Positions 15,601-40,100 of a DNA stretch of 64,000 nucleotides are shown piece after piece. Position 1 is the first letter of the stretch, and each line of letters opens with the position of its first letter. Source of the stretch: Lingula anatina (taxonomy: Eukaryota > Animalia > Brachiopoda); contig CM120644.1 in NCBI GenBank assembly GCA_051362555.1, positions 6,208,954 to 6,272,953 of the forward strand, in the 5' to 3' direction. The position numbers and the translations under genes were made by a program. Under the pieces are notes generated by a model. The model had not been told where the DNA came from. It saw only the letters and a program-made list of their open reading frames with translations, and did no database searches.

Positions 15601-18600
15601 ACTTTCACTTGTGGAGGTTTACTAGACTAAGTCATAGTTTAATAAGGTCAAATTGGGAAAGATTAACAGTTCTGAAGGATATGTCGACACAGAAAATTTG
15701 ACTTTGAGACAGTTAAAAAAGAAGAAAGTGAACGTATAATAATAATGTATTTAATACTTAAATATAATAAACATTCAGCATAAGTTTATGGTAATACTAT
15801 GGAACTGTGACATCTTATATTTAATACCTAGCATCAAGTGTATGTGACACATAAAACTTATCTTTCTAGGTCAGTTTGAGGTATTTATGATTAAAGCACA
15901 GCAGTTGAAAGTTTTTCATCACCAATTTATAGGGCACAGTGCATGACATCAGTACATCTTCACAGGTGACACCGGAAACAACAGTATACTCATTATTTCA
16001 TACATGCGGTGAAGGTTTATTCTCTTTAAAACTGAAGGTGGGTTTTTATATTGTTACAGGCATACATTCAATTTGTCTGTTTATAATTTAAACAATTTCC
16101 CCTTAGTCAACAAGTCTAAGTTCTATATTTACCACAAGTAAACTTCTACCGTTTTCATTTCCAATATGAGACAAATACTTGCAACTATGATTTCAATTTC
16201 AGAGTGTGTCTTTAAATAATATGGAAAATACAACCACAAGAAGGCACACATATCTAAACGGGGGAGGGGGAGGGGCATAAATATAACCCAAATTACCCAA
16301 TTTCCAGATAAATCCTGAGGACTTTCTTCTCTTACATACATGCAAGCTTGAAAATAATTCACCTTAATTTTGTTTGAATCCAGCAACTTTGCAGAAGATT
16401 TGAGATTCTTGTCAACCTTCACAAGCTCTGGGTCCAGCACTATCATCTGCCGTCTCTTAGCAGGTAACTGCTGTAACACATCCTTCTTCAGGCGTCTGAA
16501 ATAAAGTAAGTGAAATAAAATTCATATTAAATAAAATAAATGGCATTGTATACAGGTAAATCTAATCTTAAGATTTTAATCACTTAGACTAAGTTGAACA
16601 AGGAAATAAATATCTGGTACTAGGCCACCGTGGTGTTAATATTGGGAATGACACTTAAACAGGCAAATGCTTTCCCCAGAGAGCCAGCCAACCATCATTT
16701 GGATGACCATTGGCCTCAAAAGACAGCCTCTATTTCCAAAGACAGCTTACTAACAAAAAATTAAGTTGTTTGGTTGGTTTGGCTTACTGGGGTTGGACTC
16801 CCTGTAAATTGATGACCATTACAGATTTACATACATGTACTTGTATGTAACTTTGAATCTGTAAGTTTTTTATATGGTAATCAGAGGATTTCAAGCAACT
16901 GTTCATTTTTTGGCAAAAGCATCACAAGGGCTCTAAAATGTATTCAGTTTCCTTTCACATTTTGCTGATACTTCTGTTATATATATATATAATAAATGAT
17001 TTCTTAACATTTAATTAATTATAATATGTCAAGAAGATTTACAAAGGATTGGATCCACTCCTTAGGTCTGTAGCCAAGCAGACGTATGATGACATGGTTG
17101 AACCTGTGGTTTCTGGTTCAAACTTAGAGCGTTTGGTATATCTTTTTTTTTTTTTCAAACATATGAGCACACAACATACTGCAGTTAGTTTATTTTCCCT
17201 AAAGGGTTTCCCACAGACAATCAGAATGGCTAGAATGGAGGATATCCTTCAGAAAAAAACAAGTCCTATAAATGATTTCTTAACACATAAACTGGAAATT
17301 TTCACCCGGCCATGTGACCTAGATCTGTTGCTTCATATTAATTTTGAATATTGAGGTCGGGTGTTTAAAAAACACACTCCTTTTCTCCTAATAACCTGTT
17401 TTATAGCGTTAATAGAGTGGTAAACCTATTTTAACATTGCTAAGTAAACAGACTGATTCTCTACACATTGTTTCCCTAAACTTCAAAAACTGAATTTTTT
17501 TCTGTCCATTTTCCTTTAAGGAAATATATATTCCCTTCCAAATATTAATAATTTGAAAGCTCTTTCATTCTATAACCCTGGCTGTACCTCTGTGAGTTAA
17601 TAGTGTTAGTTGATAGAAAGGTGTAAATTTTGCTTTACTTCAGAAGATATCATGGAACCTCTATGGAAACAGGCCATCCAGAAAAATTACAAGCTTCTGG
17701 TAGATGTCATGAATGCAGATGAACTCTTGCCATACCTGTACCAAAACAATGTCATCAACCACAACCAAATGGAAAAAATCAAGGCTAAAAACAGCCGACC
17801 CGACCAATGTGAGTGTTTGATTGGATATATCCGTAGAACGGACCCAGATTTTGAACCCTATGGGCATTTTGTCAGTGCACTCAGGGAAATAAAACAGAAT
17901 CATTTAGCCAACAGTCTAGAAAGTACATATCAATCATTACAACAGGACTCAAGTGAAGTCACCAACACTGTTCCAACACAAGATGTGACAGACACACTTA
18001 GCTCTGCTCAGTGTAGAACAGATCTGCCATTACAGCAGAACACAGATGACACAATTTTTACCAACAATAACTCTTCCCTTGATAAAGAGCCCCCCTTTAA
18101 TTATGTCACGAAGGTTTACAAAGGATTGGATTCACTCCTTAGGTCCATCACCAAGCAGACGTATGATGACATGGTTGAACCTGTGCTTTCTGGTTCAAAC
18201 TTAGAGCGTTTGGTATATCTTTTTCACTTTGTAGGATACAACATAGCTTGGATCAACATTCTTTTTGTAATGATGCCAGAAGTAATATTCACCATTTTTT
18301 TCACTACAATAGTGCTATGTTGTATTCTAGGTAATTCAACTAAAAACAGCAAAATAATGCCTGTATATGAAGCATTCAAAGACATTGTTTCTCCTTTACA
18401 AAAGGTTTGGGGGACATTATTTGTATCATGTTCATTTGTGGTCAGATATTTTATGTTACCAGCTTTAAAAAATACAGAATTAATCTTTGTTTTTGTACTT
18501 ACAATGCTGCTGATTGTGATACTACTAAGCGTAGAATATGACGTGATGCCCTCAGCTGACATGACAAGATCACCTTTAATTATAATAAATGCACTTGACA

Positions 18601-21600
18601 ATGTATGTTCTCTGATTTTTTTCATTTTCAATACACCTTCGTTTCTTTTAAGCTATCCATTGCTGCACATTGTTTTATGTTCCATTTTGGTATCAGATAT
18701 TAAGACATTTACGTATTCTGGTCAAATGTGATTCTAACAGCATATCCCTAAAAATAATACTGCTACACATTCTTTTAGTATGTGCATTATATATTCACTA
18801 TGTTTTCAAATGATCTTATACTATTACTTTACAGAAATTAGTAAGGTATAGATATAATTTTAATATTTACTTATTTTAATCATTTTGATATCTTTGTTAG
18901 AATACTGATTAATTATCTAGACTATAATGATGACCATGTATATTAATCTTTTAAGATTTCTTGGTTACAGCAATCTGAAGATCAGATGATATAATATAAT
19001 ATTATCCTCTGGTTTAAGTTGGTAGGGCTTTGAAACTTAAAAGTGTGCTCCTGATGAGCCATCTGCAACACAGAACTTGGTCATTTAATTTTTTTTTATA
19101 ATTAAACACCTGGTTAAAGATAATTATTCTATTTTATTAGTCAGCTCCTTATGATGAGTTGAGCATTGTTCAGCATGAATAAGACCATCATTTATAATAT
19201 TGTGGTATATAACATTTAAGTGTCAGTAATAAAATTGGTTGGAATTTTAATGTCAAAGTTCTCTGGTTGTTTTGTTTTCAAACAACTTTAAATAAATATT
19301 ATGCATAATGCACTGAATGTGAACTTCAAGAAGCTGCATTAATTAATTCCTGGACTTGAGTCATTAACAAAAACATTCATTATTTATATATTTATTTATT
19401 TTTCAACATTGTCTGAACAGCATATAAATGTTTATCATCATGAACCAATGAGAGAGAGAGAATAAATGAAGTGGTATATAAGGGTAAAGGCAGACTTATA
19501 AAATGACTTTAGCAACTATGAAACAGAAATATGCCAATCAGTCTTACCTGCAGCAACTAATCAATTTAAAAAATATACTGCAAAACACTGGAATTTTTGT
19601 AGCTTTAATTCCCTTATTTGATATTTTTAATTTCTTGGAAATGTTTAAAAAATGGATTCTTTTATACTTTGTTCTAAAGAATACCCTTCCATATGTCATA
19701 AATCTTTCTTCTCATTAATCACAAATAAAAGTGCAAGAAATGCTAGAACATTATGTTCAATTATTGAAATTATATTACATGTACAAACAAAGAATAAAGA
19801 TACTTCTAAAAGCAGAACTTCCATGTTCAGCATAATGTAGAGTTTGAAACAAAAGTTGTTTGTAGGCAATGCATGCAAAAACACACACACACAAAAAAAA
19901 TAAATAATTCACACGGATGAAAAATTTTTTTTTAATATCACCCCCTATACTCCTGTCCCAGTTAAAATCAATACAATCTGCACCATTGTAATAAATGTTA
20001 CTTCCATTCTCTCCACTAGAGGGCAGCTGGGTGATGATGTCATATTTGTGTAAACATTCTCTAAGGGGGCATTCCCATAGATTTTAGCTTGATCAATCCC
20101 TGTGGGGAATCTCACTAGATTACTGTCAGATAATCCGGCTTAAAAGTCTGTCCCGCCTACTAAAAACTCTAAGGGTGTAATTAACTTCCGTGCGCAGTCG
20201 GCTGACTGCAATTTTACGTGAACCCCCAGGGAGTAAGGTTGATCTAGTAAGATCGATCTAAATCTCTGGGAATGCCCTCTAAGGCTGGTATGAAAATGTG
20301 TGCAGAGCTACAGTAACAAACAGTCACAGAAATTTACTGTGAATATCTAGTGAAAAAATGCTGTGATCCAAGTAGAGGGCAGCACTCCAAACCCAGTGCA
20401 AAACTAACGATAATAAAATTTATCAAATATCCTTACTTTGTCCCCAAAAACTACTGCAACACACACAGCCCTGCATAATTATATGGAGCCCTGGTCAAAT
20501 CTCAATTTCAGTAAATGGGAAATTTCTGTATCCATGTTTTGCGTTACCATAACAGATCAAAGCTTTTTAGGTAAACAATACCCCACAGTACAAAACATTT
20601 CAACATCTGGGTCAAGGCAGTGCCATTATTTACCTGAACTACTGAGTACAAAACTAACAGCAATATAATCTAAACAAAGCCTCTGTTACAAGGTGGCTGA
20701 TATTTTTAGCTAAAAATATACACAAAAAATTCCCAATAAGAAAGATAAGAAAGCTGTTAGCTTTAACTTGGTTGTCTCAGATCAAGCTATCAGAGCTCAG
20801 ATAGACAGCTTGCTGCATTATATGGTAAGTGATTTCTCTGATAATTCAAAGATAAAAAGGGTCCACAGCCAAAATCAACAAAGGCATGCGTAAGGGTACT
20901 TAAGATAGAGTGACACATTTCCTCCTTATTTACTGCCTTACATACATTCTTTTGATAACAGATAAATCTTTGGTGTAATTAACATTTACACACATTTTAA
21001 ATCAGCACAAAGATAGATGCATTATGAAATAATTAGTTTGACCTGGTTTTGTCTGTTTATAACAGGTGTATGATTTTACAGTGGTCAAACTGGTAGATAG
21101 ACAGTAGGATATTAGCAAAGTGACAGTTCTGCTGTTGGGAAAACTGGTGCATGGCTTCACAGTAATGTGCGTGTTGAGGAGATGAAATATATAGTAAAAA
21201 TTTGAGAGCTGCCACACCACAGCTGGTTTGGCAACTGGTCCTTTTTTCCCCACCTTTTGAGGCCTTTGCTTTCATGAGTTAGCTAGCACCACCAGTACAT
21301 ATCAGAATTGTCAACAGGAGTGTTAACGCATGAATTTTTGTGCTAATTCTGGTGGTGATTATTGTATAATTAGTCTTCATATCTTCAGTTTCATCAATGA
21401 CTGTTTAAATTTGATAATAATAATAATAATAATAAAAATAATAATAATAATAATAAATAAATAAATTTCCTTGGCAGGCAATTTAAAATTACTTTTGAAT
21501 CAGGCTCCCACACAATTAACATTATCAACATACCCTAGTATTATTGCTGCTTACACACAATTTTTATGGTTCTTTACCCCAAGTCTTAAAATCATGCAAA

Positions 21601-24600
21601 ATCATCTTAAGTCTCTACTGTATCACTTCTGTTTTCAGGCACATGAAATTTAAAAATAATCAAATAACCAAACTAACACAAATAGTACAAGATAGACAAA
21701 TAAACTACATCTTTTAGGTATTAGTGTTGCGATAACACAATATGGTTGTCAAATTCGAAAACATTACATTTTGGCGAGAAATAAATTCTACTAGCTTATA
21801 TGATTCATACAAAACTTGACGCTTTTAGTTCATTAAAAAATATCTTAAATGTTTTGAATGTTTATTAAGTGTGTACTGACTGAGACAAATTCTCCACCTT
21901 ATTTGTATTATATCAGCTAGATGAGGCAAAGAAAGATATCTAAGTGACTTGTATCATGGCAACAGCAAAAACACACACCGACTCCGACCAGGAGAACTTT
22001 TTCCGCATGAGCATTTTAATTGTAGATTATGCCCTCAAGGTCGTGCAAAATGTTCTCCAGAAAGAGCTAAGAAAAAAGTATCCCAATTTATCTGACACCA
22101 ACACGGGTTTTCTGAATAAGGTGCTTAGTGATAAAACGGTCTGGACCTTACTGCTTGGATTATCACCAAAAATCTTTAATCACCACCAGCGAAACCAACT
22201 GTATCCTGCTGGTAATCCCTCCACATCAGTAACTGTTGGTGATTTAGACCTCACACTGACTGTGCTTTTGCTGAGGAATGTCACTTCGTTGAACCCTCAT
22301 CCTCGGTTGAACGCATGGGACAACCCCTCTGACACAGACCCATCAACAGAGGCCACTATAGGACGAATTAAAAGATATCGAAATACCGTGTATGGCCATG
22401 CAAACAAGGCAGCGATCAGCAATTAAGGACCCTCAGAACTGTTACAAAGACTTTTGTCCAATGGGGACTCAAAATTGTTATGTGTAAACGTATTCACTAA
22501 CTATTTTCAAGAAATTACTTGATTTAATATTTAAATCATCACCAAACAAGGCAAGACACCCAGAAGCCCCCAGGCATTCTCCCCCAATATTGCATATGCA
22601 AAACACTAAAATATTCTGGTTCTTGTAGTGATCACACATGTACAGTATGTAACTTTGAATCTGTGAGTCTTCTGTATGGCCATCAGAGGGTTTCATGCAA
22701 CTGTTCATTTGTTATCAAATTTTTTCAGTCATTTCTGTTTTCAATATTTACCCAAAAATATGAGCACATGAACGAGGCACATGTTCCATATACACTGTAC
22801 CTGTTCAAGGAAGAAATCTACATTCACTCCCTTCCATATATTAAGGCTACTCTTTCACTCCATAGTCCTGCAAGCATATGACCATGTGATTGAACCTCTG
22901 GTTTCAGGCCCCAAAGATTGCAGTTGGACTGCAGTCATTCAACTTAAAAAAGACCCCCCTTAAAAAAATGTTTGATAATTATGAAGTAAAAGAAAGAAAC
23001 CATAACTTGGGAAGCAGCAATTCATTTCACACAAGAATGATAAGATTCTAAATTAACACTAATTTTCAAAATTTGTCTTTTTTTCTCTCCTATTATTAAC
23101 ATATATTGGGTTTCAGAAAAAAAGTAATAAAGGGAATGGATACATATATGGACAGCAATAAATGACAAGCCATGGAATCATGAGAAGTGTTAGTTAGTGA
23201 TGTTCTAAAATTTTGCTTTCCTTCAGAAATCATCATGGCATGTGATCCGTGGAAGCTGGCCATCCAAAAAAACTATCAGCTGCTGGTAGAAAACATGAAT
23301 GTAGATGAACTCTTGCCTTACCTGTACCAGCACCATGTCATCAATGACCATCAACAAGAAAAAATCAGAGTAGAAAAATTCCGTCAAGACCAATGTCATC
23401 TTTTAATTGATTACATTCGTAGAAGTAACCCACAGTGTCACCCCTATAGATATTTTGTCAGTGCACTAAGGAATACAGAACAGAATCATTTAGCTGACAG
23501 TCTGGAAAGAACTTTTGAGTCATTACAACAGGGCTCAAATGAAGCCACCAACACTGTTCTGACACAAGATGTGACAGATGAACCCAGCTCTGCTCATTTT
23601 AAAACAGAACAGCCATTACAACAGAACTCAGTTGCAGAAACCATCAATATTCCTATTCTCCAAACTGATGAAGAAAGGACAGACAGACCTTGCTCTTGTC
23701 AGTATGAGTCAATGCCCAGTCGTGGTTACCATCGCCTGACATGTCACAACTGTTTATCTCTCTATAGCATAGTTCTGTTCATACTGTCCCCAGTCAGATG
23801 TATCTGGCTGAAGTTGAAGAGCATTTATCAAGTACTGAGACCAATCACGCACAATATGTTTATCTATATCAAATATCTTTTTGTTCTGATCCTTTTCAAT
23901 TGTATCAGACCTCCCCTTCACTTCATAGTCCTGAAGGCATATGATCATGTGATTGAACCTCTGGTTTCTGGCTCTAACTCAGAGCGTTTAGTTTATCTCC
24001 TTCATTTGGTAGGGTACAACTTAGCTTACATTTATGTTCTCTTTGTAATGATGCCACCAGCAGCATTTATCATATGGTTCATTACTTTGCTTATAAGTAC
24101 TCTCAGAACATTAAGAAGTACCCATGTACAAATTCCAGTAACATCTGAGACATATATTTTTTTATCAGAAATGTTTGTTGTACGAGTACTTACACTTTTT
24201 TTTTCTGTGGTCACTATCCCTATGCCAAAAAAAAATTACAAGGCATTGGACACTTTCACATTTTCAACATTTCTCATGAATACGCTATTTACATGTACCA
24301 TATGCTTGGCTTTGACCTACCTACCAATATTTTCTTTATCCATAATGAACATATGTTCTCTGGTAAGTTTGGGTGTTGAATATGGGTACTTCTTTAATAA
24401 ATCATTGTTTCTTTCAAGCTATCCACTGCTGCACATTCTGTTATGTTCCATTTTAGTGTCAGGTATTGTAGGCTCACGGCATATTTATGTCTCATTAAGA
24501 CATTTACATTCTATGTTCACATGTGATAACCATAATTTTCACTCACAAAAACTTTTCTTTATCTCTGCAATTTTAATGTTATATATATTAATACTAACAT

Positions 24601-25103
24601 GGGTAAAACTAAGTGATCCTGATAAACTAGAGCCCCTCTTTTATCATTAACCTAAATATAATGATCTTTATACCCACTTGTTTTAATCAGTTTAGTATTC
24701 TTATTATATCACATGCTTTCTTTTCAAGGTAAAGCATGGTAATGCACTTATATAAAGTTAGAACTGGTATGAAACATGTGCAATGCCTTTCTTGTAATAA
24801 AACAAATGCATTTCATTTAACTGGCCTACCACTGATCAATCTTGGAGCAAAGAACTTAAGACTAAAATGTTGATTTAAAAACCAACTTTTAGGCCAAAGT
24901 GTTACGTATGTGTCTGAACCTCTGAGAAATAACGTCCACACCAGTCAATGCATTTCTTGGAACTAACTTTATTATTCACTTTACAAGTCCAGATTAATGC
25001 GCAGTGAGTCGCACCACACAAATAAGTCCTATACATAACATTCCTCCCAACTGAAACGTGAGGTACCACAAATTATGACTGTTACCAACAAAAATATATA
25101 TAA

Positions 25104-25175
<72 letters not shown>

Positions 25176-28100
25176 AATAAATTAATGATCATATCATCAC
25201 ATTGAGTGTACATCATGTTGTCTTCATTACAATGGGGCCTCGTTTAATTGGGCCATTTGAATCTTAAAGTCATAATAACCCTTCGTTTTGGCCAAAAATT
25301 GGATTTTCCTGGCATAAACGGCAATTTTCCCCTACTTACCAATGGTCAACGACCCCATTCCTGCATTCAAAGTTAGTCCAGGTTTTTTTCCGAAACGCTT
25401 GGTTTTTTGTTAAAATTTCTTAAGAAATAGCCTATCGAGCGGGGTTTTCTGATGACCTACTTAAAACCGCGGGAAAAGCAGACAACAACAACACTTTATT
25501 ACAATAAGATAAGATTCATACGATATAATCGTCTTATTGCTCAGAATACATTTATATCCACAACGTGTGCAGTTCTGGGCTATTCGTTATCCGACACACT
25601 GTACAAAAACTCGCAACTTACGTCTGAGGATTGTGCTATATCCTATCCCACCACATGATATTTTGGTCTCGAATGCACGCGAGAAGATTTAAGAAGATTT
25701 AAGAAGATTTAATATAAATTCAACTGACAATCATTTAAAATCACATATCTCTACCAGTACTTAAAACTGAACATAATCATTTAACCATTTAGGTGAGCCT
25801 GCATTACGTCTGGGGTTTCTACGTGTTATCCCCTCGCTTTCTCTATCATTGGTTTGATCAGTACTAGACTGCATAACTACCTGTTCACCTTTAGTTTGTG
25901 AAGACTGATTATCTTGGAAACACAATTCACGATTCTGACCCCCTGAATAACTATTCTTCCTCACCGACTGGGGCACATTTTGAGAGTGTTTCCTTATTTT
26001 GTCCCACGGAATCATGTATTTGATCAACATGCCTGCGCCAAGTACCATTTTCTACCTGTACTCAATATGACACTGGTCCGGTTTTCTCAGTAATAACCCC
26101 AGAACCCACTTTGCATTAGCGCTCGCATGGTAATTGCGAATATCCACATGTCGCCTGGGCTCAAAGTCATGCAGCACACTCGATCTGGGACTTGCCACAT
26201 CCACCTGTTTGTTTCAAATGCGTTGGTCAATGCTAGGTCTAAACGAGACTGTAATTTCCGACCTAAAAACAGGTGTGCGGGAGTTTCACTTGTTGTGGCA
26301 TGGGGTGCATTTCTGTATGCCAGTAACACCTTAGCCAAACTTTTTCTCATCAATTCATTTTCCTTCCAACTAGCCTTCATAGTGGCCTTAAAAGACTGCA
26401 CAAAGCGCTCACCTAACCCATTCGAGCTTGGGTGATACGGTGCACTCTTTACATGTTTAATGCCGTTCACCTTCATAAAATTGGCAAACTCCATGAGGAG
26501 AACTGCGGCCCATAGTCACTGACCAACACATTGGGTACTCCGTGAAAATATCTCGCGCATGACCTCGATTGTCTTTCTGGCTGTGGTCTTTCGCAATGGT
26601 ACCACTTCAGGCCATTTCGAATGCACATCTACATGTACCACAATCAGAAACATTGAGTTCAAAAATGGGCCTGCAAAATCCACGTGTATGTGCTCCCATG
26701 GTCTACAAGGCCATTCCCGAGGGTGAATTGGGGCTGCTGCTGGGGAACGTTTGTGCTCAGGACACCCTTCACACGACTTCGTGATTTTCTCTATATCAGA
26801 ATCAATGTTAGGCCACCACACCAGGCTTCTTGCCAGAGCCTTCATTTTTACAACTCCCACATGCCCAGTATGTAACTCCCTGAGAATATACCCTCTCAGT
26901 TTTGCTGGGATAACGACACGTATACCCTAGAACAGACAACAGCTGTTCATCGACAGCTCTTATCTACGAGTGTAAAATGGATACATTTCTCTGTCTTCTG
27001 GTTTTATGCACGCTTTCCATCTGTGCATTGTGTTTTCACATACAAGTTGCCATTATAGGGTCACGCCCGGTTTCCATCACTAGTAACCGGCAGATTTTCA
27101 ACCTGATGCACGTACAGCAAATCTGTGCTATCATCGTCTGTCTCCAACTTACCACCAGACATTGGTAGCTGAGACAAACAATCAGCGTTCCCATGACTAT
27201 TTGTGTTTCTGTACATAATGTCATAATCATAACCAAACAAAAACAATGCATATCGCTGCATTCTTGCTGCCGTTGTGACTGACACACCTCTTTCTGGATG
27301 AAAAATTGACACCAAAGGTCGATGATCCATCAACAACATGAAATGCCTGCCATAGCGGTACGAATGAAATTTCTTCACACCCCATACTATAGCAAGAGCC
27401 TCACGATCAATTTGAAAATACTTTCTCTTTGTCTGTGTCAAAGACCGTGACACATACGCGATTGGCTTCTTGGAGCCATCGTCCATTACATGAGACAAAA
27501 CGCACCCTAATACGTAGGGTGAAGCATCACAAGCAATCCGAATTGTCTTTTCTCGATCATAATGTGCAAGCACCTCCTCGGAGGTCATCATGTGTTTAAC
27601 CCTTTCAAAAGCATCATTGCATTTGGAGGTCCAACTCCACTCAACTCCCTTTCCAAGCAACTGATGTCACAGGTACAGCACCGCTGACAAATCTGGTAAA
27701 AATCTCACATAGTAATGCACCATGCCTAGAAACAAGCGCAACTGGTATGTTCTAGTAACCCGAAGGGTTTTCAACCTGATGCAAGTACAGCAAATCGGTG
27801 CTGTCACAAAGTTAGGCAGGTGTTTTTTAATTACCAGTTTCTCAAACTCAGCCAACCTCAAAATGGCTAAATTGAAAAAAAAATCAGTAATAAAATTTAA
27901 CCCAATAATATTTTTAACATTTTAAACAATTAGTTTCTGAATCAGTGGTGTACCATGTTAGTAAATTATGTACCACCTGTAACAGAAGACATGCATGTGC
28001 ATCCACCTAGAGTTTTAGTTTTCTGGAAACCAGCCTATTTTATGTTTCAACTTAACTTGCTCATCACATCTGAATATTGTTCTGTAGAATGTTTTATTTT

Positions 28101-31100
28101 TTATCTATTTATCTTTTTTTTGTCTTCTCTTATGTTATGAAGGTAAATTAAAATGCTAAGGTAAATCACTTGTAAATCAAAGAGATTGTATGCTTTTACT
28201 ATGGGTAAATTATCAGATAATTTTGTCCATTTTTTTCACTGGTAAGGCATTACATTTTGATCCTTATGGGCCACACAACACTGTGTCAGCCAAATGATCA
28301 AGGCCCTTTGATTTTATGTATTTAAGTAATCCAAGACCCCATTTCCAGAGATTAGATCGATCTACTTTAGATCGACCCAACTCCCTGGGGGTTCACGCTA
28401 AATAGCTGTCAGCCAAGCGGACACGAAAGTTAATTACCCCCTTACAGCTTGTAGTAGGACATTTAAGCCAGATTATCTGACAGTAATCTAGTGAGACTTC
28501 CCACGGGGATAGATCGATCTAAAAGCTCTGGGAATGTAGCCCAAGAGCAAAATATGTGGTACGCAAAGTTTACTGACCTGATCATTATGGTCTTTTCCAA
28601 AAGAAGTTGGAGCTCAGGCAAATTAGAGGATCCACTGTAGTCCCAGCCAAAATTATTCTGAAAATAAGTACAAAAATTACTCACCAGATCTGAACAAAAC
28701 TGATCAAATACATTTTCCAGGACAATATTAGTATTGTGTTTGGTGAAATATATATTTAACTGGGTCTTGTGTAGGGGTGGCAAAAATGAATGTGTACATT
28801 GAAGTGTTTTTTTTTTTTTTTTTTTTTCATGAGTACGCCATGAGCAAACTCATATAACAGACATTGAACAAGTAAAAGTGGAAAAAAAACTTTTTATAAA
28901 ACTTGTTACATGAGAAATTTGAATCATGGGAGATGTTACCAAATGCCAATAGTAAATGTAATTAGAAGTGTTGTCAATGTAAATATCTGTTTTACAATGC
29001 TTTTTAATTTGTGTGATAAAATTGTTCCGTTTACAACTTTTGCCCTTTTACAATGCTTTTTAATTTGTGTGATAAAGTTGTTCTGTTTACAATTTATGCC
29101 ATTTCACAATGCTCTTTTCATTTGTGTGACAATTTTGTTTTATAATCATGTGTAATTACTAGTATTATACAATTACTATAATTATCAAATATTTATTAAG
29201 GATTTTATATCCTATTCTGGTTCTGAATATATACTATAGACAGGCCCGTAGCCAGCAATTTCAAAAGGGGGGTTCTTTTTCTGAAAAAGTGGACCTTTTT
29301 CCATAAAAACTTTACGTACCTAGATCAAATTTTACCTAGAGTGGACCTTTTCCAAGCAAAAGGGGCAGTTCTTTCGAACCCACCGAACCCCCCCCCCTGG
29401 CTACGGGCCTGATAGAAAATACTACCTAATGTGTCTGCAACCGTTGCACGACAACAAATGTATTGTCCTTTTAAAAGTCTTTATTCCGCTTGATTTTACA
29501 TAAAATAAAGTACTTTCTTCATGTCCGATCACTAGACTAAGTGTATCTCTCTGTGTGCACACTGTACACATGTATCTCCTTGTGTATTTCTCACAAATTA
29601 CGCGCCAAATGTTTATTATAGAATAGGGCCACATGACTCATATAACACAAAAAGGGCGCAACCCCAACTATACATATACATTACATCTCTTTACATACTA
29701 TATTATTTATACTAATATAAGGTACAATGTGATATATTTCATGTTATTATTAATATATAATGGTACATGTAAGATAAGTAAATAATATTCAAGATATCTG
29801 ATTTTTAGTAACCAAAAAGTGTGAAAACAAAAGTTTGTGTACAATGAACAATGAGTGCTGTTTGTATATAGTATTTTCTGTTTCCATGAAATAGTATTTT
29901 ATTCATGTCTAACTATGATCATTATAAGTTACTGTATCCAATAAAGAATGTATTAGCCAAAGTATCACATAAACTTTGCTGTGAACTGTAAACTCTCCAT
30001 GTGAATAAATTTTCAAACTTGAAAATGTTGATTTCAGTGTTTCTATATTCACCATTCAAAAAGGGAAAAGGAGACATCGTCTTCTATAATTATGTTAGTT
30101 CAATGACATGCGTTGGGGAATACTTCAAAATAAGATCATCTTTTTCTTACCATACGTTCCAATATTTACTCACTTGATCACCAGTGCCCAAATTAATCAA
30201 TAGATTTATAATTTTTCATCAGCCATAGACCAAAATTAGGCCATTTGATGGTAGATGTAGAGAATGGAATCTCTGGCATGGGTGATATGATGTTTCAAAT
30301 TGAAAGTTTTATGAACTTTTGTTTCACATCATTCTTATCAGTAATGCATATGATGGAGATAATTTCTAAACAAGCTCTGCTAGATACTGATGATACAAAG
30401 TAAAACTCTTTTCTCTCCACTCCTCAAGTTAGACAAAGAACGAATTTATTTAGTAAACTGAATTGGTATATAATCTGATATAACAAATAACATAACTAAA
30501 AAGCACTAGCATTCTTGAATAGCCAGTACCATGAATATTTCATCAAAATTTCAGACCTTCATAAAAATCTTGTCCTTTAAAAAAGAGACAAACTATCATT
30601 AATAAAAATATATCCTTCTTCTTTGGCAGAAGTGCTTTAATTTGGATATGCAATATAATACAGTCAGACACTTTAACCTACCTGTTTACCATCACAATAT
30701 CGCAGACCAAAGAGGTGGAAGTTGGGGAAGAGTTGAGGTTTGACCAGCCTCAGCTGGGTGTACAGCTCTGCGGGGCGAGATAACGCAGGTGTCCCAGAGA
30801 GGAGAATCACACGTTTGGATACCTGAATAGTGATGAAAAGAGTTTTTATAAGAACATGAGGCAAAGATATACTAACTGTAGTAGATGGTTTAGCAAGATA
30901 CAAAAGTAGCATTCAAATATGCAAGCACATATACACAAATACCTGCACTCATTAATACTAAATATCATATAATATTAGCAACATAAAATCATACAAAAAC
31001 AAATATCTGTATAAATAACATAACATATTACTTAATTGGTAGAAAGGGCATTATAGAAATGATCATTACATTAATTCTACATAAGACTTTTCTAGAGAGC

Positions 31101-34100
31101 AAAAAATAGTGAAAAATAAATAAACCACAAAAATGGGTTCACATTTTATTGTCATTTTTCCCACAGTTTTCGATAGGATTGTCCTTGGCGATAAAGGGAA
31201 TATTTATGAAAAACTGCCCTAGGAGTTTTTACTTTCTCATACCTCATAAAAAATATAATTAACTTGGTTTAATGTGTATACTGTGTCTTAACTGTTTTGT
31301 TCATTTTAAAAATTACCTTCAAAATCAGTTGTGCTGCTTGGCACCTGGCTGTGCGGAAATTTTTCAAAAAGTGACTTTCGTCCTGAAACATATTACAATG
31401 TATAATGGAAATTTCATTAAAGACAAATACCATAATGCCATAAAGTGTTCATCTGGTACATCTATAAATATTTACTACTTGACTAACATCCAACATTTTT
31501 GCAATCAGGGTGCCTTTCCTAATTTTAAAAACATGAACGTGCATTTTTTTAGCTTTAAGACCAGCGTCTCTTTGCAACTGAGTGTTCTACAATTAGTTTT
31601 GAGCCAGATTCTCTATCCTGTAGATTTGGGAAAATGCCCCCAACTTTTATCCACTTTACTTTTATGACATTCTTATTTAATTGTTCATTGGCAAAATTTG
31701 GCCAATAACATAATCAAATAATCATTTTTCTCATCAATCACCCACCAAAATGGCCACCTTGAATCCTACATGCTGTAGATCATTCTTCTTTTTGGTCATC
31801 ATGTCATAGCTGACAATGACAACTTTCCCAGCTGTGACGTCATCTTTACCAGTCACCACCACATTAATGTCATCTGGGTTGAGATCAGGGATCCATCTTT
31901 GTAGTTGCTGCAAAAAATGTAATGATCTACATAACAATATGCAGGGGCGGATCCAAGGATACTCTCTGACAATCTCCCATATTATCTTTGTTGATCCATC
32001 CTCCATTTTTCGACCATCTTCCGACAGAAATAAATAGATACCCGTCAATGTAAACCTGAAAATCTGACTGTCTTTTGGAAGGCCCAGGAGATGGACTAAA
32101 GCTGCCCTGATATGGTTAGAAAAAACTACTAAATTGTTTCTAAAAAGAGTTAACATGCCTTAATATATGGCCCTTTAGTCCTGAGCCCTCTAGTCACATG
32201 ACCTGACTTTTTTATCTAAATGCAAGAGGACAGTGAAATACATGTTTTTACTGTGTTAAAGAAATTACTTGAAAATACAATGCAGTTATGTATGTATACC
32301 AATATGTCTTGTTCACAAAAGGTTTAAAATCAATTCCATACTTTCTGGTATCATTATTTGTCTCTTATCAGACTGTAATATAACACAAGTAATTATGTAT
32401 GTGGCCAACTCCTACAGTATTCTTTAAAAGGCACTCCTATTAAAGTTTTACCTCGGACCACGCAAATCTGACTGAAGATGGCACCACAACCAAAAGGGGC
32501 CACTCCTTCCTGTAGTAACAAGCCACACATATGGATTGTATTGTTTTCCCAAGACCCATGTCATCTGCTATTATAACACGTCCTTCCCGTGAGATGGCAA
32601 AACTGAAATTAAAATCATTCAAAGTATTTTAAATAACTCACTAGACATGTAGTTGGAACACTTAATAAATAAATACAAATGCAGGAAATTATTGATATTA
32701 TTCTGTACAAGCATATCTAAATAATAATTGATAATATTCTAATAATAAATATCAAATATATACATATCATCAACGTACAGTCATATAATTGTTAAACCAT
32801 AAGGTATTCCCAAGACACAGTCAGCAAATGACTGCAAAATTAATGATCAGATTAAGAATTTCCATCTCATTCACTTGTAGGCCCCATCAAATGAAGTTAT
32901 CCTAAAAACAGAACTGAAATTCCTAAAAATCCTCACTTCACTCCATCTCTCTGGAAAGGCATGAGAGAGCCAGTCAGTGTGTCAGGCACGCGTGTCAAGT
33001 CAGCGTTTGGCACGTGGTTGTCTGTGATCTTCCCTTGGCAGGCAGGTTTAAAAGCCTGGAGAAGAGGTTGGGGCAGACCCTCCAGTTCTATTACTCCTTG
33101 CTGCATCAGAACTCTGGCCCTTCGCACTATAGGGAAAGAAATCAGATTGATAACAGGGGCGGATCCAGGGCTATTTACTGACTGTCTTCCAAATTATCTT
33201 TGTTGATTCATCCTCTAATTTTGACCGTCTTCCAACAGTAAAAATTAGATAACCGTCAATGTAAACTTGAAAATCTGACCATCTTCCGGAAGACCCAGAA
33301 GACGGCCTAAATCCGCCCCTGGATAATCTATCTAAGATATACAATATTCATTACCTTTGCCAGCGAAGCTATGATCAGTGTTTATTAGTTTATGTCTTGA
33401 TTTTAGAGGAAATACAGTATATCAAAATATCCTTTAACAAACTTTGATAAAATGTGCAGGCATGTGCAGTCATTCAGTTGGGAAAAATTATAACTACAAT
33501 TTCAAACAAGGCAGCAAAGTTGTCAAATGTACAGACAACAAGGCAGCAAAGCTGTCAAATGTACAGACAAAAAGCAGACAATAACAATGCACAAAACAGG
33601 CTACTGTCAATTCTGATGCAAAAGTACATTATGCTTAACTGCAAATTCAACATCAAATTTTAATTATGCTCAACAGGTAATACCAATGTAAGTGAAATGT
33701 GTAACAAGCGTAAGGATTCAGGCACATGGGAGTTTAAGTTCACACTTTGAAAAAGCCAGAATGAGAAAAATGAAAATTTCACATAAAACTGCCTAAATTC
33801 AATAATAAATGATAACCCATTTGAGCTGGCTTTCTAATTTGAACTGCATGCCAATCCTACAAATCGTACTTGTAAGTTGAAAATAATAATAAGTAACATA
33901 GTTTTCTTTTCATAATGTTTGTAGTAGCAGTGCAAAAAGATTTTTGTCAATTTTGATGTAACATTACATAATAAATTACAGAATAATTATCACCAATTTT
34001 TGATTATTGACTACAAATAGCATGGACATGTAGAAAATTTGATTACCATTTGGCTTCATGTCCATGGGAGCTTCGAGTCCCACAATGAATATGCCAACAT

Positions 34101-37100
34101 GATAAAAATGAATATTTCACTAAAATGTATAACTTCCAGAAAAAGAAGCCAATTAGACTGCTTTTCCAACTCAGGCTGCATTTTAGTCCTTTGTTTCTTT
34201 TTTGAAAGTTTGACAATCATAAGTAACATGGTTTTCCCATAATGGTCATCATGGCAGCAGCACCCAAAATTGTGTTTTCTTCTATTTTAATGCAATATTA
34301 CATAATGCTTAACAGCATAATGACCATCAGTTTTTAATAATAAAAGATCCGTATCGTGGATTTTCAGAAAATGTGATTAGCATGGGTCTTCAAGCTCGTG
34401 GAGGTTCTAAGTCACACCTTGAAAATGCCAATATGTGAAAAATTAAATTTTCACAAAAGACAGATTAACTGCCAAAAAAATTTACCAAATAGTCTGCATT
34501 GCCCACTGAAGCTTTATTTAAGTCCCATGTTTCTTCCTGTAAGTTTGAGAACAGTAAGTGACATGGTTTTCCTTAAATGGTCATCATGGGAGCAGTGTCC
34601 AAAATAGGGGTGTCTTCAAATTTTGATGCAATATTACATAATGTTTAACAGGATAATTACCATCAATTTTTAATAATAAAATATCAGTATCATGGATATT
34701 CAGAAAATGTTCCTAGCAAAGGTCTTTAGGCCAAAGGAACTTCAAAGTCACACCTTGAAAATGCCAAAATGTAGACAAGACAGCACTGTCCTGAAATGTG
34801 TTTTTATCCATTTTTAACAATTTTTTAACATATAACAAAATTAACAATTTACTGCCATTTATATATGATCAACTAAGAAAATTGATGAGATGGGAAAAAT
34901 ATCAATAGAACAGTGTTTAATGTCCAATTTCCTCCATTCTGAGTTTCTGAACATAGTGAATGAATGAATCTGACAAACTGCAATGATATGAGTTTATTTC
35001 CATTTTTGAAACACTATTATACAATACATGATAACAAGTTTACCATCATTTTTACATAATCAACTAACAATGTTGTAAAGATGCAGGAAATGTCAAACAA
35101 ACACTTTTACGAATCTTATTAGTTAAATAATGAGACTGTTAACATGCCTAAGAATTGAATCTGAGGAAATGTGAAAAAACAGCATAACTTATAAAATAAT
35201 GCCCCGATTATGCTGATTTTCGAACTTGACCTACGTTTTAGTAAGATTGATTACTCCTGTGAGTTTCATGACAACAGGTCTATCGGTTTTTTCTTGAAAT
35301 GTGTTAACAGTGTTGCACATATGCTGAAAAGTGAAAAAAACAGCATAACTACTAAAATAGTGGCCCGATCATGCCGATTTTCGAACTTGACCTGCGTTTT
35401 AGTAAGATTGATTACCCCTATGAGTTTCATGACAACAGGCCTATCGGTTTTTATTGAAATGTGTTAACGATGTTGCATATATGCTGAAAAGTGAAAAAAA
35501 AAAGCATAACTTCTACAATAATGGCCCGATCATGCTTATTTTCGAACTTGACCTGCGTTTTATGAATACTCATCAGCTCTGTAAATATAAAGCCAAAAAG
35601 TAAAACTGTCTTCCACTTATGGTGTTAATGCTGAAAGTGCACGGCAACAGTGACGGCGACATGATCAACGATGGCGACGACAGGCGCAGGTGATGGCAAT
35701 ATGTACATACATATCTGTGTCTGTACATAATAAAATATATGTATCATGGATTTTCAGAAAATGTGACTAGCATGGGTCTTCAAGCCCGTGGAGGTTCTAA
35801 GTCACACCTTGAAAATGCCAATATGTGAAAAATTAAATTTTCACAAAAAACTGATTAACTGCCAAAAAAATTTACCAAATAGTCTGCATTGCCCACTGAA
35901 GCTTTATTTCAGTCCCATGTTTCTTCCTGTAAGTTTGAGAACAGTAAGTGACATGGTTTTCCTTAAATGGTCATCATGGGAGCAGTGTCCAAAATAGGGG
36001 TGTCTTCAAATTTTGATGCACTATTACATAATGTTTAACAGGATAATTACCATCAATTTTTAATAATAAAATATTAGTATCATGGATATTCAGAAAATGT
36101 TCCTAGCAAAGGTCTTCAGGCCAAAGGAACTTCAAAGTCACACCTTGAAAATGCCAAAATGTAGACAAGACAGCACTGTCCTGAAATGTTTTTTTTTCCA
36201 TTTTTAACAATTTTTTAACATATAACAAAATTAACAATTTACTGCCATTTATATATGATCAACTAAGAAAATTGATGAGATGGGAAAAATATCAATAGAA
36301 CAGTGTTTAATGTCCAATTTCCTCCATTCTGAGTTTCTGAACATAGTGAATGAATGAATCTGACAAACTGCAATGATATGAGTTTATTTCCATTTTTGAA
36401 ACTCTATTATACAATACATGATAACAAGTTTACCATCATTCTTACATAATCAACTAACAATGTTGTAAAGATGCAGGAAATGTCAAACAAACACTTTTAC
36501 GAATCTTATTAGTTAAATAATGAGACTGTTAACATGCCTAAGAATTGAATCTGAGGAAATGTGAAAAAACAGCATAACTTATAAAATAATGCCCCGATTA
36601 TGCTGATTTTCGAACTTGACCTGCATTTTAGTAAGATTAATTACTCCTGTGAGTTTCATGACAACAGGTCTATCGGTTTTCCTTGAAATGTGTTAACAGT
36701 GTTGCACATATGCTGAAAAGTGAAAAAAACAGCATAACTACTAAAATAGTGGCCCGATCATGCCGATTTTCGAACTTGATCTGCGTTTTAGTAAGATTAA
36801 TTACTCCTGTGAGTTTCGTGACAACAGGCCTATCGGTTTTCCTTGAAATGTGTTAACAGTGTTGCATATATGCTAAAAAGTGAAAACACAGCATAAATAC
36901 TACAATAATTGCCCAAACATGCTGATTTTCGAACTTGACCTGCGTTTTATGAATATTCATCAGCTCTGTAAATATAAAGCCAAAAAGTAAAACTGTCTTC
37001 CACTTATCGTGTTAACGATGAAAGTGCACGGCGACGGCGACGGCGACAGGGACGGCGACGGCGACGACAGACGCAGGTGATGGCAATATGTACAGACACA

Positions 37101-40100
37101 TCTGTGTCTGTACATAAAAAGCAGGAAATAACAAAACAGGCTACTGTCAATTCTGATGCAAAAGTACATTATGCTTAACTGCAAATTCAACATCAAATTT
37201 TAATTATGCTCAACAGGTATTACCAATGTAAGTGAAATGTGTAACAAGTGTAAGGCTTCAGGCCCATGGGAGTTTAAGTTCACACTTTGAAAATGCCAGA
37301 ATGAGAAAAATGAAAATTTCACATAAAACTACTTAAATTCAATAATAAATGATAACCCATTTGAGCTGGCTTCCTTATTTGAACTGCATGCCAATCCTAC
37401 AAATCATATTTGTAAGTTAAAAATAATAATAAGTTTTCTTTTCATAATGTTTGTAGTAGCAGTGCAAAAAGATTTTTGTCAATTTTGATGTAACATTACA
37501 TAATAAATTACAGAATAATTATCACCAATTTTTGATTATTGACTATAAATAGCATGGACATGTAGAAAATTTGATTACCATTTGGCTTCATGTCCATGGG
37601 AACTTCGAGTCCCACAATGAATATGCCAACATGATAAAAATGAATATTTCACTAAAATGTATAACTTCCAGAAAAAGAAGCCAATTAGACTGCTTTTCTA
37701 ACTCAGGCTGCATTTTAGTCCTGTTTCTTTTTTGAAAGATTGACAATCATAAGTAACATGGTTCTCCCATAATGGTCATCATGGCAGCAGCACCCAAAAT
37801 TGTGTTTTCTTCTATTTTAATGCAATATTACATAATGCTTACGTAACAGCATAATGACCATCAGTTTTTATTAATAAAAGATCCGTATCATGGATTTTCA
37901 GAAATGTGACTAGCATGGGTCTTCAAGCCGGTGGAGATTCTTAAGTCACACCTTGAAAATGCCAATATGTGAAAAATTAAATTTTCACAAAAAACTGATT
38001 AACTGCCAAAAAAATTTACCAAATAGACTGCATTGCCCACTGAAGCTTTATTTAAATCCCATGTTTCTTCCTGTAAGTTTGAGAACAGTAAGTGACATGG
38101 TTTTCCTTAAATGGTCATCATGGGAGCAGTGTCCAAAATAGGGGTGTCTTCAAATTTTGATGCAATATTACATAATGTTTAACAGGATAATTACCATCAA
38201 TTTTTAATAATAAAATATTAGTATCATGGATATTCAGAAAATGTACCTAGCAAAGGTCTTCAGGCCCAAGGAACTTCAAAGTCACACCTTGAAAATGCCA
38301 AAATGTAGACAAGACAGCACTGTCCTGAAATGTGTTTTTTTTTCATTTTTAACAATTTTTTAACATATAACAAAATTAACAATTTACTGCCATTTAAATA
38401 TGATCAACTAAGAAAATTGATGAGATGGGAAAAATATCAATAGAACAGTGTTTAATGTCCAATTTCCTCCATTCTGAGTTTCTGAACATAGTGAATGAAT
38501 GAATCTGACAAACTGCAATGAGTTTATTTCCATTTTGAAACTCTATTATACAATACATGATAACAAGTTTACCATAATTTTTACATAATCAACTAACAAT
38601 GTTGTAAAGATGCAGGAAATGTCAAACAAACACTTTTACTAATCTTATTAGTTAAATAATGAGACTGTTAACATGCCGAAGAATTGAATCTGAGGAAATG
38701 TGAAAAAACAGCATAACTTATAAAATAATGGCCCGATTATGCTGATTTTCGAACTTGACCTGCATTTTAGTAAGATTGATTACTCCTGTGAGTTTCATGA
38801 CAACATGTCTATCGGTTTTCCTTGAAATGTGTTAACAGTGTTGCACATATGCTGAAAAGTGAAAAAAACAGCATAACTACTAAAATAGTGGCCCGATCAT
38901 GCCGATTTTCGAACTTGATCTGCATTTTAGTAAGATTGATAACTCCTGTGAGTTTCATGACAACAGGCCTATCGGTTTTCCTTGAAATGTGTTAACAGTG
39001 TTGCATATATGCTAAAAAGTGAAAAAACAGGATAAATTCTACAATAATGGCCCGATCATGCTGATTTTCGAACTTGACCTGCGTTTTATGAATATTAGTC
39101 AGCTCTGTAAATATAAAGCCAAAAAGTAAAACTGTCTTTCACTTATGGTGTTAACGCTGAAAGTGCACGGCGACGGCGACGGCGACATGATCGGCGACGG
39201 CGACGACAGACGCAGGTGATGGCAATATGTACAGACACATCTGTGTCTGTACATAAAAATATTTTAGATAATCCTTTGGTAACCTTGTTTCTGGGGTGTT
39301 GAGGTGCTGTCTTGTTTCATGATCATGCATTTAAACAACAATATTACATGGTTCAATGTACCAGTGCCTAGTACATGTACAATGTATCCTGTTTAAAATC
39401 TCTTTCCATAGACAAAAGGGGAAAACTATCTGCAGGACTGGACTGTTATTAAATATACTTACTTAATTCTTCATATTCTTCTAATTTGAAGTCCCATCTT
39501 TTGGTTATGGAATCTGAAATGAGGAAATAATATTTTCGCACAAATACTCTACTTAACTTTTCTGAAAATAACAGCTCTTCTTAAAAATACTTTAAAAATC
39601 TAAAACAAAAAAGTAATAAGTAATGATTAACATAATTACTTCAGTCTCATCTTCACCATAACTGGATATTAGATACTGGTTCACTTTCTTCTTAAGATTG
39701 CATTCAGAACAGCTGAGTAACAGATCCATAGATCAATATGGCCGACCCACTTGAATGCTTGCTGATCCATGGATCTGTTAGTCTGCTGTTCTTAGGCTTT
39801 GTTTATATGGAAAATCTATTTTTCTAAAATTCTAAAAATCTATTTTCGATATCTTGTGATCACGGTCTGTGCCCTGGATACCCCGCGGCGTAATTGCTGG
39901 CAGCGCAGAGAATTAATTACAGCTTTGGAAGTAATTGGCTCCCACTGCCTGTAATTACGCCATGGGGTATTCAAGGTACAGACCGTGATCACAAGATACC
40001 ACTATTAGATTTTTAGATTTTTAGAAAATAGATATTCCATGTGAACGGAGCCTTAATGTGTTCTTAGTAGAATCTCTCTTCAATCTCCTCCACCAGGAGC

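What the first reader, a model, noticed from the sequence alone, without database searches (positions are those of the whole stretch)
23235..24650. Unusual architecture: N-terminal CARD fused to a polytopic membrane domain
Seen: after the CARD and a polar linker, the protein is mostly hydrophobic segments (roughly 8 by eye in paralog 2, fewer in paralog 1). The paralogs share blocks YD..VEP..SGSN.ERLVYL.H.VGYN.A.I..LFVMMP and [16 protein letters not shown], with conserved polar His/Asn/Glu residues in or near helices. Sequence between the blocks is highly diverged. Paralog 2 has an extra Cys/His-rich insert. Established: MAVS has a CARD with a single C-terminal TM anchor; I do not recognise a polytopic CARD family. 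Inference: a CARD-gated pore/channel effector or a membrane sensor that nucleates CARD filaments.
Basis: partly seen in the sequence, partly recalled or inferred. Interest (0 to 1): 0.75.

Follow-up and report, generated by a model that had tools for sequence, protein, structure and literature searches.

The report
Lamp-shell CARD on orphan membrane bundle
Two neighbouring genes inside an intron of a helicase gene, most likely from the lamp shell Lingula, each join a cell-death signalling module (CARD) to a predicted multi-pass membrane region that my searches found in no other organism, and they likely work as membrane-anchored immune alarm platforms.

Summary
23235-24650 is one 471-codon frame: CARD (Pfam E 4e-14), linker, Cys/His motif, then 7 hydrophobic segments; the paralog at 17652-18731 has 4-5. 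The membrane part behaves as coding DNA: no stops where about 20 are expected, T enriched at codon position 2, dN/dS 0.3-0.4 in the shared blocks, exon-like RNA cover in one study (mostly other alleles or paralogs). A profile search of 1.84 billion proteins found only two Lingula anatina models; no family or fold was matched. Corrections: the Cys/His segment is a family trait lost by paralog 1, and the 'diverged middle' is peculiar to paralog 2. Best reading: a Lingula-restricted, birth-and-death family of membrane-anchored CARD scaffolds, likely immune (0.45). Rivals: membrane-tethered HEPN RNase switched on by CARD clustering (0.2), decoy (0.13), pore (0.12), near-neutral tail (0.1). Mechanism is wholly inferred.

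The parts
23235..24650 (+). Paralog 2 (the finding): single-exon coding frame, 471 aa, CARD - linker - Cys/His motif - hydrophobic domain
23225..23226 (+). Splice-acceptor AG after a pyrimidine tract, 8 bases before the ATG; same layout before paralog 1; the 8 bases are open in phase 1
   Evidence: sequence; RNA depth in run X8 0.16 in the bin before 23228, 14 in the bin after; tblastn of P0004 253-272
23259..23510 (+). CARD, residues 9-92
   Evidence: Pfam PF00619 E 3.7e-14; dN/dS 0.38, CI 0.20-0.71
23691..23753 (+). Cys/His motif CxC...HxxxCHxC, residues 153-173; possible metal or lipidation site (inference)
   Evidence: motif scan; 96 of 129 identical to P0004 over linker plus this region
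23940..24056 (+). Shared block 1, residues 236-274: long helix with E250, Y254, H257, Y261 on one face, ending at a proline before a strongly hydrophobic helix
   Evidence: dN/dS 0.30, CI 0.10-0.88
24093..24398 (+). Paralog-2-specific middle, residues 287-388: open and hydrophobic, not alignable above chance to the other copies
   Evidence: RNA depth at most 0.26 in bin 24104-24249 in 4 of 4 runs
24399..24467 (+). Shared block 2, residues 389-411, hydrophobic helix with a conserved His
   Evidence: dN/dS 0.38, CI 0.10-1.5
24796..24801 (+). AATAAA, candidate poly(A) signal of paralog 2
   Evidence: RNA depth 3.6 in bin 24688-24833 of run X8
17652..18731 (+). Paralog 1: 359 aa, CARD - linker - 4 to 5 hydrophobic segments, no Cys/His motif; counterpart of L. 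anatina LOC106161290
21956..22426 (+). DZIP3-type HEPN frame, 156 aa, Rx5H motif (R142, H148) present, ends at profile position 102 of 144; 149 of 156 identical to the start of P0004, which runs on
16830..17153 (+). Decayed copy 1: Cys motif and block 1 in different frames, with stops; 93% alike to paralog 1 over 123 bases
22633..22909 (+). Decayed copy 2: Cys motif and start of block 1 in different frames; 91% alike to paralog 2 over 56 bases
20744..20839 (+). Stretch matching P0004 642-673, the piece that the database model places before its second CARD; has AG and GTAAGT edges, no clear RNA cover
16496..28577 (-). Host intron (12,082 bases) of a SMARCAL1-like SNF2 helicase gene; holds the whole cluster antisense
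   Evidence: flanking exons join in frame over GT..AG; SNF2, Helicase_C and weak HARP hits; the name SMARCAL1 rests on these plus recall

Best explanation
This is one member of a small tandem gene family, so far seen only in Lingula, that joins a CARD to a predicted multi-pass membrane domain and likely works as a membrane-anchored immune or cell-death signalling platform. Shown: the frame, the CARD, the hydrophobic segments, purifying selection on the first block, the tandem birth-and-death layout and low-level transcription of the family. Inferred: with no signal peptide the CARD faces the cytosol; the helical bundle holds it in an internal membrane and clusters, either when an upstream CARD sensor (Lingula has RLRs) templates it, as with MAVS, or when the bundle itself meets a pathogen protein or membrane damage; the clustered CARDs then recruit a CARD partner, the best candidates being the six caspase-Y paralogs reported for Lingula, which is reported to lack APAF-1. 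The conserved polar-faced helix would be the packing core, the swappable middle the part that sets specificity or location. In the fuller form an upstream exon likely adds a HEPN RNase; in this haplotype that exon is cut short, leaving CARD plus membrane domain with its own ATG.
For: CARD by Pfam and by model (pLDDT about 80-93 over residues 1-100 of paralog 1, Foldseek TM-score 0.87-0.90 to the Apaf-1 CARD). Stop-free and codon-position tests (T at positions 1/2/3 0.32/0.47/0.36, chi2 p 0.0097; paralog 1 p 0.00015; paralog-2 middle p 0.01). dN/dS 0.39 (CI 0.15-0.93) over residues 236-286, as low as the CARD's 0.38, while the linker is 0.96. Between paralog 1 and its database counterpart the membrane part differs at 10 of 186 residues and the CARD at 13 of 95 (Fisher p 0.02): a kept anchor with a faster-changing interaction domain. 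Immune context: HEPN_DZIP3 frame next door, a family fused to CARD, NACHT and DEATH in animal expansions (PMC3710099) and copy-variable between oyster haplotypes (PMC9646362). Two intact and two decayed copies in 8 kb. Precedent for membrane CARD scaffolds: MAVS, CARD19 (PMC8997538). Caspase-Y expansion and APAF-1 absence in Lingula (PMC11463336).
Against: No function was tested. Models of the membrane part are poor (mean pLDDT 44 and under 50), so topology rests on hydropathy alone. Only four sequences exist, two of them near-identical. The blocks were chosen for being alike, which biases dN/dS down; block 2 and the middle have intervals that include 1. RNA: trace cover or none in runs X1, X2, X4, X5 (4 of the 7 runs laid); cover in X7-X9 comes from one unstranded study and mostly from reads with many differences, so transcription of this exact allele and its strand are not shown. 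No CARD partner was identified; the Foldseek CARD rows are all above E 0.001 and do not pick a class. Decayed copies and a broken form in each of two assemblies show that members are often lost.
Confidence: 0.45

Rival explanations
1. The working gene is HEPN-CARD-membrane domain: a membrane-tethered RNase whose CARD-driven clustering would dimerise and switch on the HEPN domain, in the manner of IRE1 or RNase L; the copy in this window has lost its effector and is a relic or helper.
For: L. anatina model P0004 runs HEPN, then the same E-I-I-M-A-C-D-P junction, then the membrane domain. Both paralogs keep a phase-1 acceptor with an open 8-base leader. The Rx5H motif is present. HEPN-related reads start at the exon edge near 21914 with depth 18-41 in X7-X9. 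HEPN plus TM proteins are predicted ER RNases (PMC3710099 passages).
Against: Neither copy seen is whole: the window's HEPN stops at residue 156, and P0004 lacks about 80 residues of that CARD. No HEPN-to-CARD joint is listed in 7 runs laid. P0004 is an automatic model that also strings on a second CARD unit. Paralog 1 has no HEPN upstream in the window.
Confidence: 0.2
2. A membrane-tethered CARD decoy: it binds and caps CARD assemblies or soaks up pathogen antagonists, like CARD-only inhibitors (recalled), and the hydrophobic part is only an anchor.
For: No enzyme domain in either frame. CARD changes faster than the membrane part. Segment number and the middle vary freely. Low expression.
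Against: An anchor needs one helix; 200-300 residues with a kept polar stripe and a Cys/His motif suggest more than tethering.
Confidence: 0.13
3. A CARD-gated pore or channel: recruitment to a CARD filament would oligomerise the membrane domain into a lytic or ion-conducting pore.
For: Several hydrophobic helices plus a long helix with E, Y, H, Y on one face in all copies with small exceptions; multi-TM domains are proposed pore effectors in bacterial conflict systems (PMC8195603 passage).
Against: Copies differ in segment number and one has a non-alignable middle of about 100 residues. No sequence match to a known pore or channel family.
Confidence: 0.12
4. The hydrophobic part is a young, near-neutral tail gained from T-rich non-coding DNA, or a soluble helical domain, and the cluster is decaying.
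For: Found in no other organism; no intron in the frame; de novo membrane domains from T-rich DNA are reported (PMC7005711, search listing only); decayed copies flank it; block 2 and tail statistics are not significant alone.
Against: Open in four sequences despite synonymous divergence of 0.3-0.6; codon-position bias; a 24-base, frame-keeping duplication in block 1 in 4 reads of X8; 176 of 186 identity in the membrane part against 82 of 95 in the CARD. A de novo origin long ago stays possible and does not conflict with the best reading.
Confidence: 0.1

Closest known systems
MAVS and CARD19 (BinCARD2), integral membrane CARD proteins
   Same: N-terminal CARD, polar linker, membrane anchor; PMC8997538 (passages) names these two as the only CARD proteins known as integral mitochondrial membrane proteins
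   Different: One membrane span against 4-7 predicted here; no sequence likeness outside the CARD; single conserved genes against a tandem birth-and-death cluster
BAP31 and BFAR, polytopic ER proteins with DED-like regions
   Same: Several membrane spans beside a region likened to a death-fold adaptor; BAP31 is in a complex with procaspase-8 (PMC2139787 abstract; PMC10861911 passages)
   Different: Their DED likeness is weak; order differs; BFAR has RING and SAM; no Pfam match here; here the domain is a clear CARD
DZIP3/hRUL138-like HEPN fusion proteins of marine invertebrates
   Same: HEPN_DZIP3 with Rx4-6H next to a CARD, tandem and haplotype-variable (PMC3710099, PMC9646362, PMC8260672 passages)
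   Different: Listed partners are TPR, RING, ankyrin, CARD, NACHT, DEATH, LRR; no multi-pass membrane domain in the passages read; no NACHT or NB-ARC here
L. anatina LOC106177554 (P0004) and LOC106161290 (P0005), uncharacterised models
   Same: The only database carriers of the membrane domain; P0005 is the counterpart of paralog 1
   Different: P0004 has a whole HEPN, lacks most of the first CARD, has a paralog-1-like middle and a second CARD; P0005 ends before block 2; no paper in the library names either id

Membership tests
CARD (PF00619) | Profile score above the curated cut-off | tested here: met
   52.9 and 48.6 bits against 23.9
CARD (PF00619) | Six-helix death fold | tested here: met
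   Paralog 1 model, six helices in residues 4-102 at pLDDT 80-93; TM-score 0.87-0.90 to Apaf-1 CARD
MAVS / CARD19 | A single membrane span | tested here: not met
   7 and 4-5 hydrophobic segments by hydropathy; prediction only
MAVS / CARD19 | Outer mitochondrial membrane location and signalling from CARD assemblies | not testable with these tools
   needs cells
BAP31 / BFAR | Family profile match; RING and SAM for BFAR | tested here: not met
   no such Pfam hit at E up to 1 or 10
DZIP3-type HEPN fusion proteins | HEPN_DZIP3 domain with Rx4-6H | tested here: met
   108 bits, R142-H148, in the neighbouring frame 21956-22426, which is truncated
DZIP3-type HEPN fusion proteins | HEPN in the same polypeptide as the CARD and membrane domain | tested here: inconclusive
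   joined in database model P0004; stop codon in this haplotype; no joint listed in reads
NLR / STAND receptors | NACHT or NB-ARC NTPase | tested here: not met
   none in P0001-P0003 nor in the precomputed domains of P0004, P0005
Known pores and channels (gasdermin, NINJ, MLKL, TRP, bacterial TM effectors) | Sequence profile match | tested here: not met
   Pfam, PDB sequences, PADLOC, NCBIfam gave nothing under E 0.3
Known pores and channels (gasdermin, NINJ, MLKL, TRP, bacterial TM effectors) | Shared fold | tested here: inconclusive
   low-confidence model; only generic helical-bundle rows

The most novel reading that the evidence does not exclude
A brachiopod-born class of death-fold receptor: an orphan multi-pass membrane bundle with a swappable middle acts as the sensor in place of a NACHT-LRR module, and its clustering drives CARD assembly and, through an alternatively joined exon, a HEPN RNase, giving an APAF-1-less animal a membrane-resident switch for caspase-Y and RNA destruction.
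Probability: 0.2. Interest if true: 0.8.

Novelty: new variant of a known kind. Interest (0 to 1): 0.5.

Why it matters
Integral-membrane CARD proteins described so far are single-span. A CARD on a multi-pass domain with no detectable relative would add a new way to start death-fold signalling at membranes, and it is a concrete candidate for how CARD caspases are switched on in Lingula, where APAF-1 is reported absent. The cluster also shows an orphan membrane domain being kept, swapped and lost beside a HEPN RNase inside a housekeeping intron. Its weight is limited by being seen in one genus, in four sequences, with no functional data.

Tried and rejected
Whole genome: none is held for this window, so other family members in this assembly could not be counted. 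Sequencing-run search: no RNA holder listed; nine same-species raw-read runs were offered, of which 7 were laid. ESM Atlas: no usable hit for either membrane region; a blank there shows neither novelty nor absence. Metagenome and viral contigs: 0 of 112 and 0 of 230 pattern matches confirmed. Homolog search with residues 1-175 returned only P0004 among 174 candidates of 259-825 aa; longer and shorter proteins were not searched by that tool. Fold searches of the membrane model: Foldseek best E 4.9; VIA-align best Z 10.0, rmsd 2.7, 81 residues, to a designed helical filament, within the range of generic bundles. Complex prediction of four copies of the membrane domain: no answer, score 0.00, alignment not used. 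Frameshift in the paralog-2 middle: rejected, the other two frames hold 8 and 4 stops and score no better. Antisense shadow of a coding exon: rejected, the minus strand of 23600-24800 has 27-32 stops per frame and the host exons lie outside 16496-28577. Read-through of a CARD exon into intron: rejected by the stop-free and codon-position tests. Weak family rows not accepted: MSC_0624_12TM E 0.33, Mmc1_C E 1.3, ORF6 E 0.64.

Full report
What is there. The window is AT-rich animal DNA. The frame 23235-24650 gives 471 residues and a second frame at 17652-18731 gives 359. Both begin with a CARD (52.9 and 48.6 bits, cut-off 23.9). The model of paralog 1 folds this part as six helices at pLDDT 80-93 and it overlays the Apaf-1 CARD with TM-score 0.87-0.90, though no Foldseek row reaches E 0.001. 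After the CARD come a polar linker, in paralog 2 a Cys/His segment, and then 7 hydrophobic segments in paralog 2 and 4-5 in paralog 1 by a Kyte-Doolittle window. No topology predictor was on hand.

Is the hydrophobic part real coding sequence? Three tests say yes. Stop-free: 0 of 20000 first-order simulations were open for either paralog, with 20.5 and 15.5 stops expected. Codon position: T is 0.32/0.47/0.36 at positions 1/2/3 in paralog 2 (p 0.0097) and 0.29/0.47/0.36 in paralog 1 (p 0.00015); 7 segments were reached by 3 of 3000 stop-free frames of the same base content, 4 segments by 150 of 3000 for paralog 1, so the paralog-1 test is marginal. Selection: Nei-Gojobori dN/dS between the paralogs is 0.38 for the CARD (CI 0.20-0.71), 0.39 for residues 236-286 (0.15-0.93), 0.38 for block 2 (0.10-1.5), 0.96 for the linker and 0.57 (0.28-1.15) for the poorly aligned middle. 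The blocks were chosen by likeness, which biases these values down.

Relatives. Searches with the membrane part returned one protein each: L. anatina LOC106177554 (P0004; 1 of 2616 candidates) and LOC106161290 (P0005; 1 of 392). A profile of all four sequences against 1.84 billion representatives returned the same two and nothing else at E up to 0.001. Pfam, PDB sequences, PADLOC and NCBIfam gave no credible match. The window's HEPN frame is 149 of 156 identical to P0004, so the organism is L. anatina or a close Lingula (inference). Paralog 1 and P0005 differ at 13 of 95 CARD residues but 10 of 186 membrane-domain residues (p 0.02). The copies are mosaics: P0004 is like paralog 2 in linker and Cys segment (96 of 129) but like paralog 1 in the middle (71 of 106, against 27 of 86 for paralog 2). 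The middle of paralog 2 is open and hydrophobic but scores no better than shuffles against either copy (129 and 77 of 500), and the other frames are closed, so it was replaced or evolved fast. The Cys motif occurs in paralog 2, twice in P0004 and in both decayed copies: paralog 1 lost it. In block 1, E250, Y254, H257 and Y261 lie within 60 degrees of one helix face.

Surroundings. Minus-strand exons with SNF2, Helicase_C and a weak HARP match make a SMARCAL1-like gene (name partly recalled). Exons ending at 28578 and starting at 16495 join in frame over GT..AG, so one 12,082-base intron holds the whole cluster, antisense: decayed copy 1 (16830-17153), paralog 1, a HEPN_DZIP3 frame (21956-22426; 108 bits; Rx5H present; cut at profile position 102 of 144), decayed copy 2 (22633-22909), paralog 2 and a broken LTR-retrotransposon. 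Each intact frame is preceded by a pyrimidine tract, AG and 8 bases before the ATG. P0004 uses this acceptor to put a whole HEPN in frame before the exon, but lacks about 80 residues of that CARD. So two assemblies each show a differently broken HEPN-CARD-membrane unit; an intact ancestor is inferred, not seen.

Expression. Seven of nine offered same-species RNA runs were laid. X1, X2, X4 (90% likeness) and X5 gave trace cover or none on paralog 2 (at most 0.23); paralog 1 had depth 1-2 in single bins, in both directions in the stranded runs. X7, X8, X9, one study, gave low cover (85% likeness). In X8 depth is 0 and 0.16 in the two bins before 23228, 9-14 over the CARD and linker, 2-8 over most of the membrane part, 0.26 over bin 24104-24249 and 3.6 past the stop, while intron bins 21476-21913 and 22498-22643 are empty. 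That is exon-like. But the listed reads carry 4-12 other differences, so they come mainly from other alleles or paralogs, the library is unstranded, and no HEPN-CARD joint is listed. Four X8 reads show a 24-base, frame-keeping duplication in block 1.

How it likely works. Shown: a selected, low-level transcribed family fusing CARD to a predicted multi-pass domain in an immune-type birth-and-death cluster. Inferred: cytosolic CARD, membrane bundle as anchor and clustering unit, CARD-CARD recruitment of a partner. Lingula is reported to lack APAF-1 and caspase-2 and to have six caspase-Y paralogs and a CRADD (PMC11463336, passages), and has CARD-bearing RLRs (PMC8998645, passages); these are the candidate partners downstream and upstream. 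I give this scaffold reading 0.45, the membrane-tethered HEPN RNase 0.2, decoy 0.13, pore 0.12, near-neutral tail 0.1. The structure models of the membrane part are too weak to weigh (mean pLDDT 43.8; under 50).

Comparison. It likely works like MAVS or CARD19 (PMC8997538, passages) but is not a member: the single-span feature is not met and no likeness exists outside the CARD. BAP31 (PMC2139787, abstract and outline) and BFAR (PMC10861911, passages) are polytopic with only weak DED likeness and are unrelated in sequence. DZIP3-HEPN fusions with CARD, NACHT and DEATH are known and expand by lineage (PMC3710099, PMC9646362, PMC8260672, passages); the passages read list no multi-pass partner. 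Kaur et al. (PMC8195603, passages) describe variable death-fold architectures in marine invertebrates including Lingula, none of this form in the 12 of 16 places shown. Six searches listed no paper on a polytopic CARD family or on the two gene ids; I judged most of these from listings only. The Lingula immune survey of Gerdol et al. 2018 was seen only as a reference, and supplements of the papers above were not read; either may list these genes. PMC7005711 on de novo membrane proteins was seen as a search listing only.

Verdict. A real and apparently undescribed architecture, limited so far to one genus and four sequences, with an inferred mechanism. New variant of a known kind (membrane-anchored CARD adaptors, lineage-specific death-fold fusions). 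Interest 0.5.

Noticed in passing
window 12627-41234, minus strand: Multi-exon SMARCAL1-like SNF2 helicase gene (long first coding exon 40218-41234, SNF2 and Helicase_C exons); its 12-kb intron holds the cluster.
   Followed up: partly
window 26087-27921, minus strand: Broken LTR-retrotransposon (RNase H and integrase zinc-finger Pfam hits, several stops and frame breaks) in the same intron, 1.4 kb past paralog 2.
   Followed up: partly
window 20070-20274 and 28340-28536: Inverted pair, 81% alike over 207 bases, flanking the HEPN frame, paralog 2 and the retrotransposon; heavily covered by repeat-derived RNA reads, so likely a dispersed element.
   Followed up: no
window 33300-39400, minus-strand frames: Several near-identical stretches recur in stop-to-stop translations, suggesting a tandem duplication of 1-3 kb units inside another intron of the helicase gene.
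   Followed up: no
window 22644-22789: RNA reads in X7-X9 lie on decayed copy 2, and 4 reads in X8 carry an extra 37 bases resembling decayed copy 1, pointing to a further expressed family member elsewhere in the genome.
   Followed up: partly
window 21914-22420: HEPN reads carry many shared differences and small insertions near 21967-21971, so other HEPN_DZIP3 paralogs are expressed in the same samples.
   Followed up: no
window 25263-25685 and 47426-47855: Inverted dispersed repeat, 81% alike over 442 bases.
   Followed up: no
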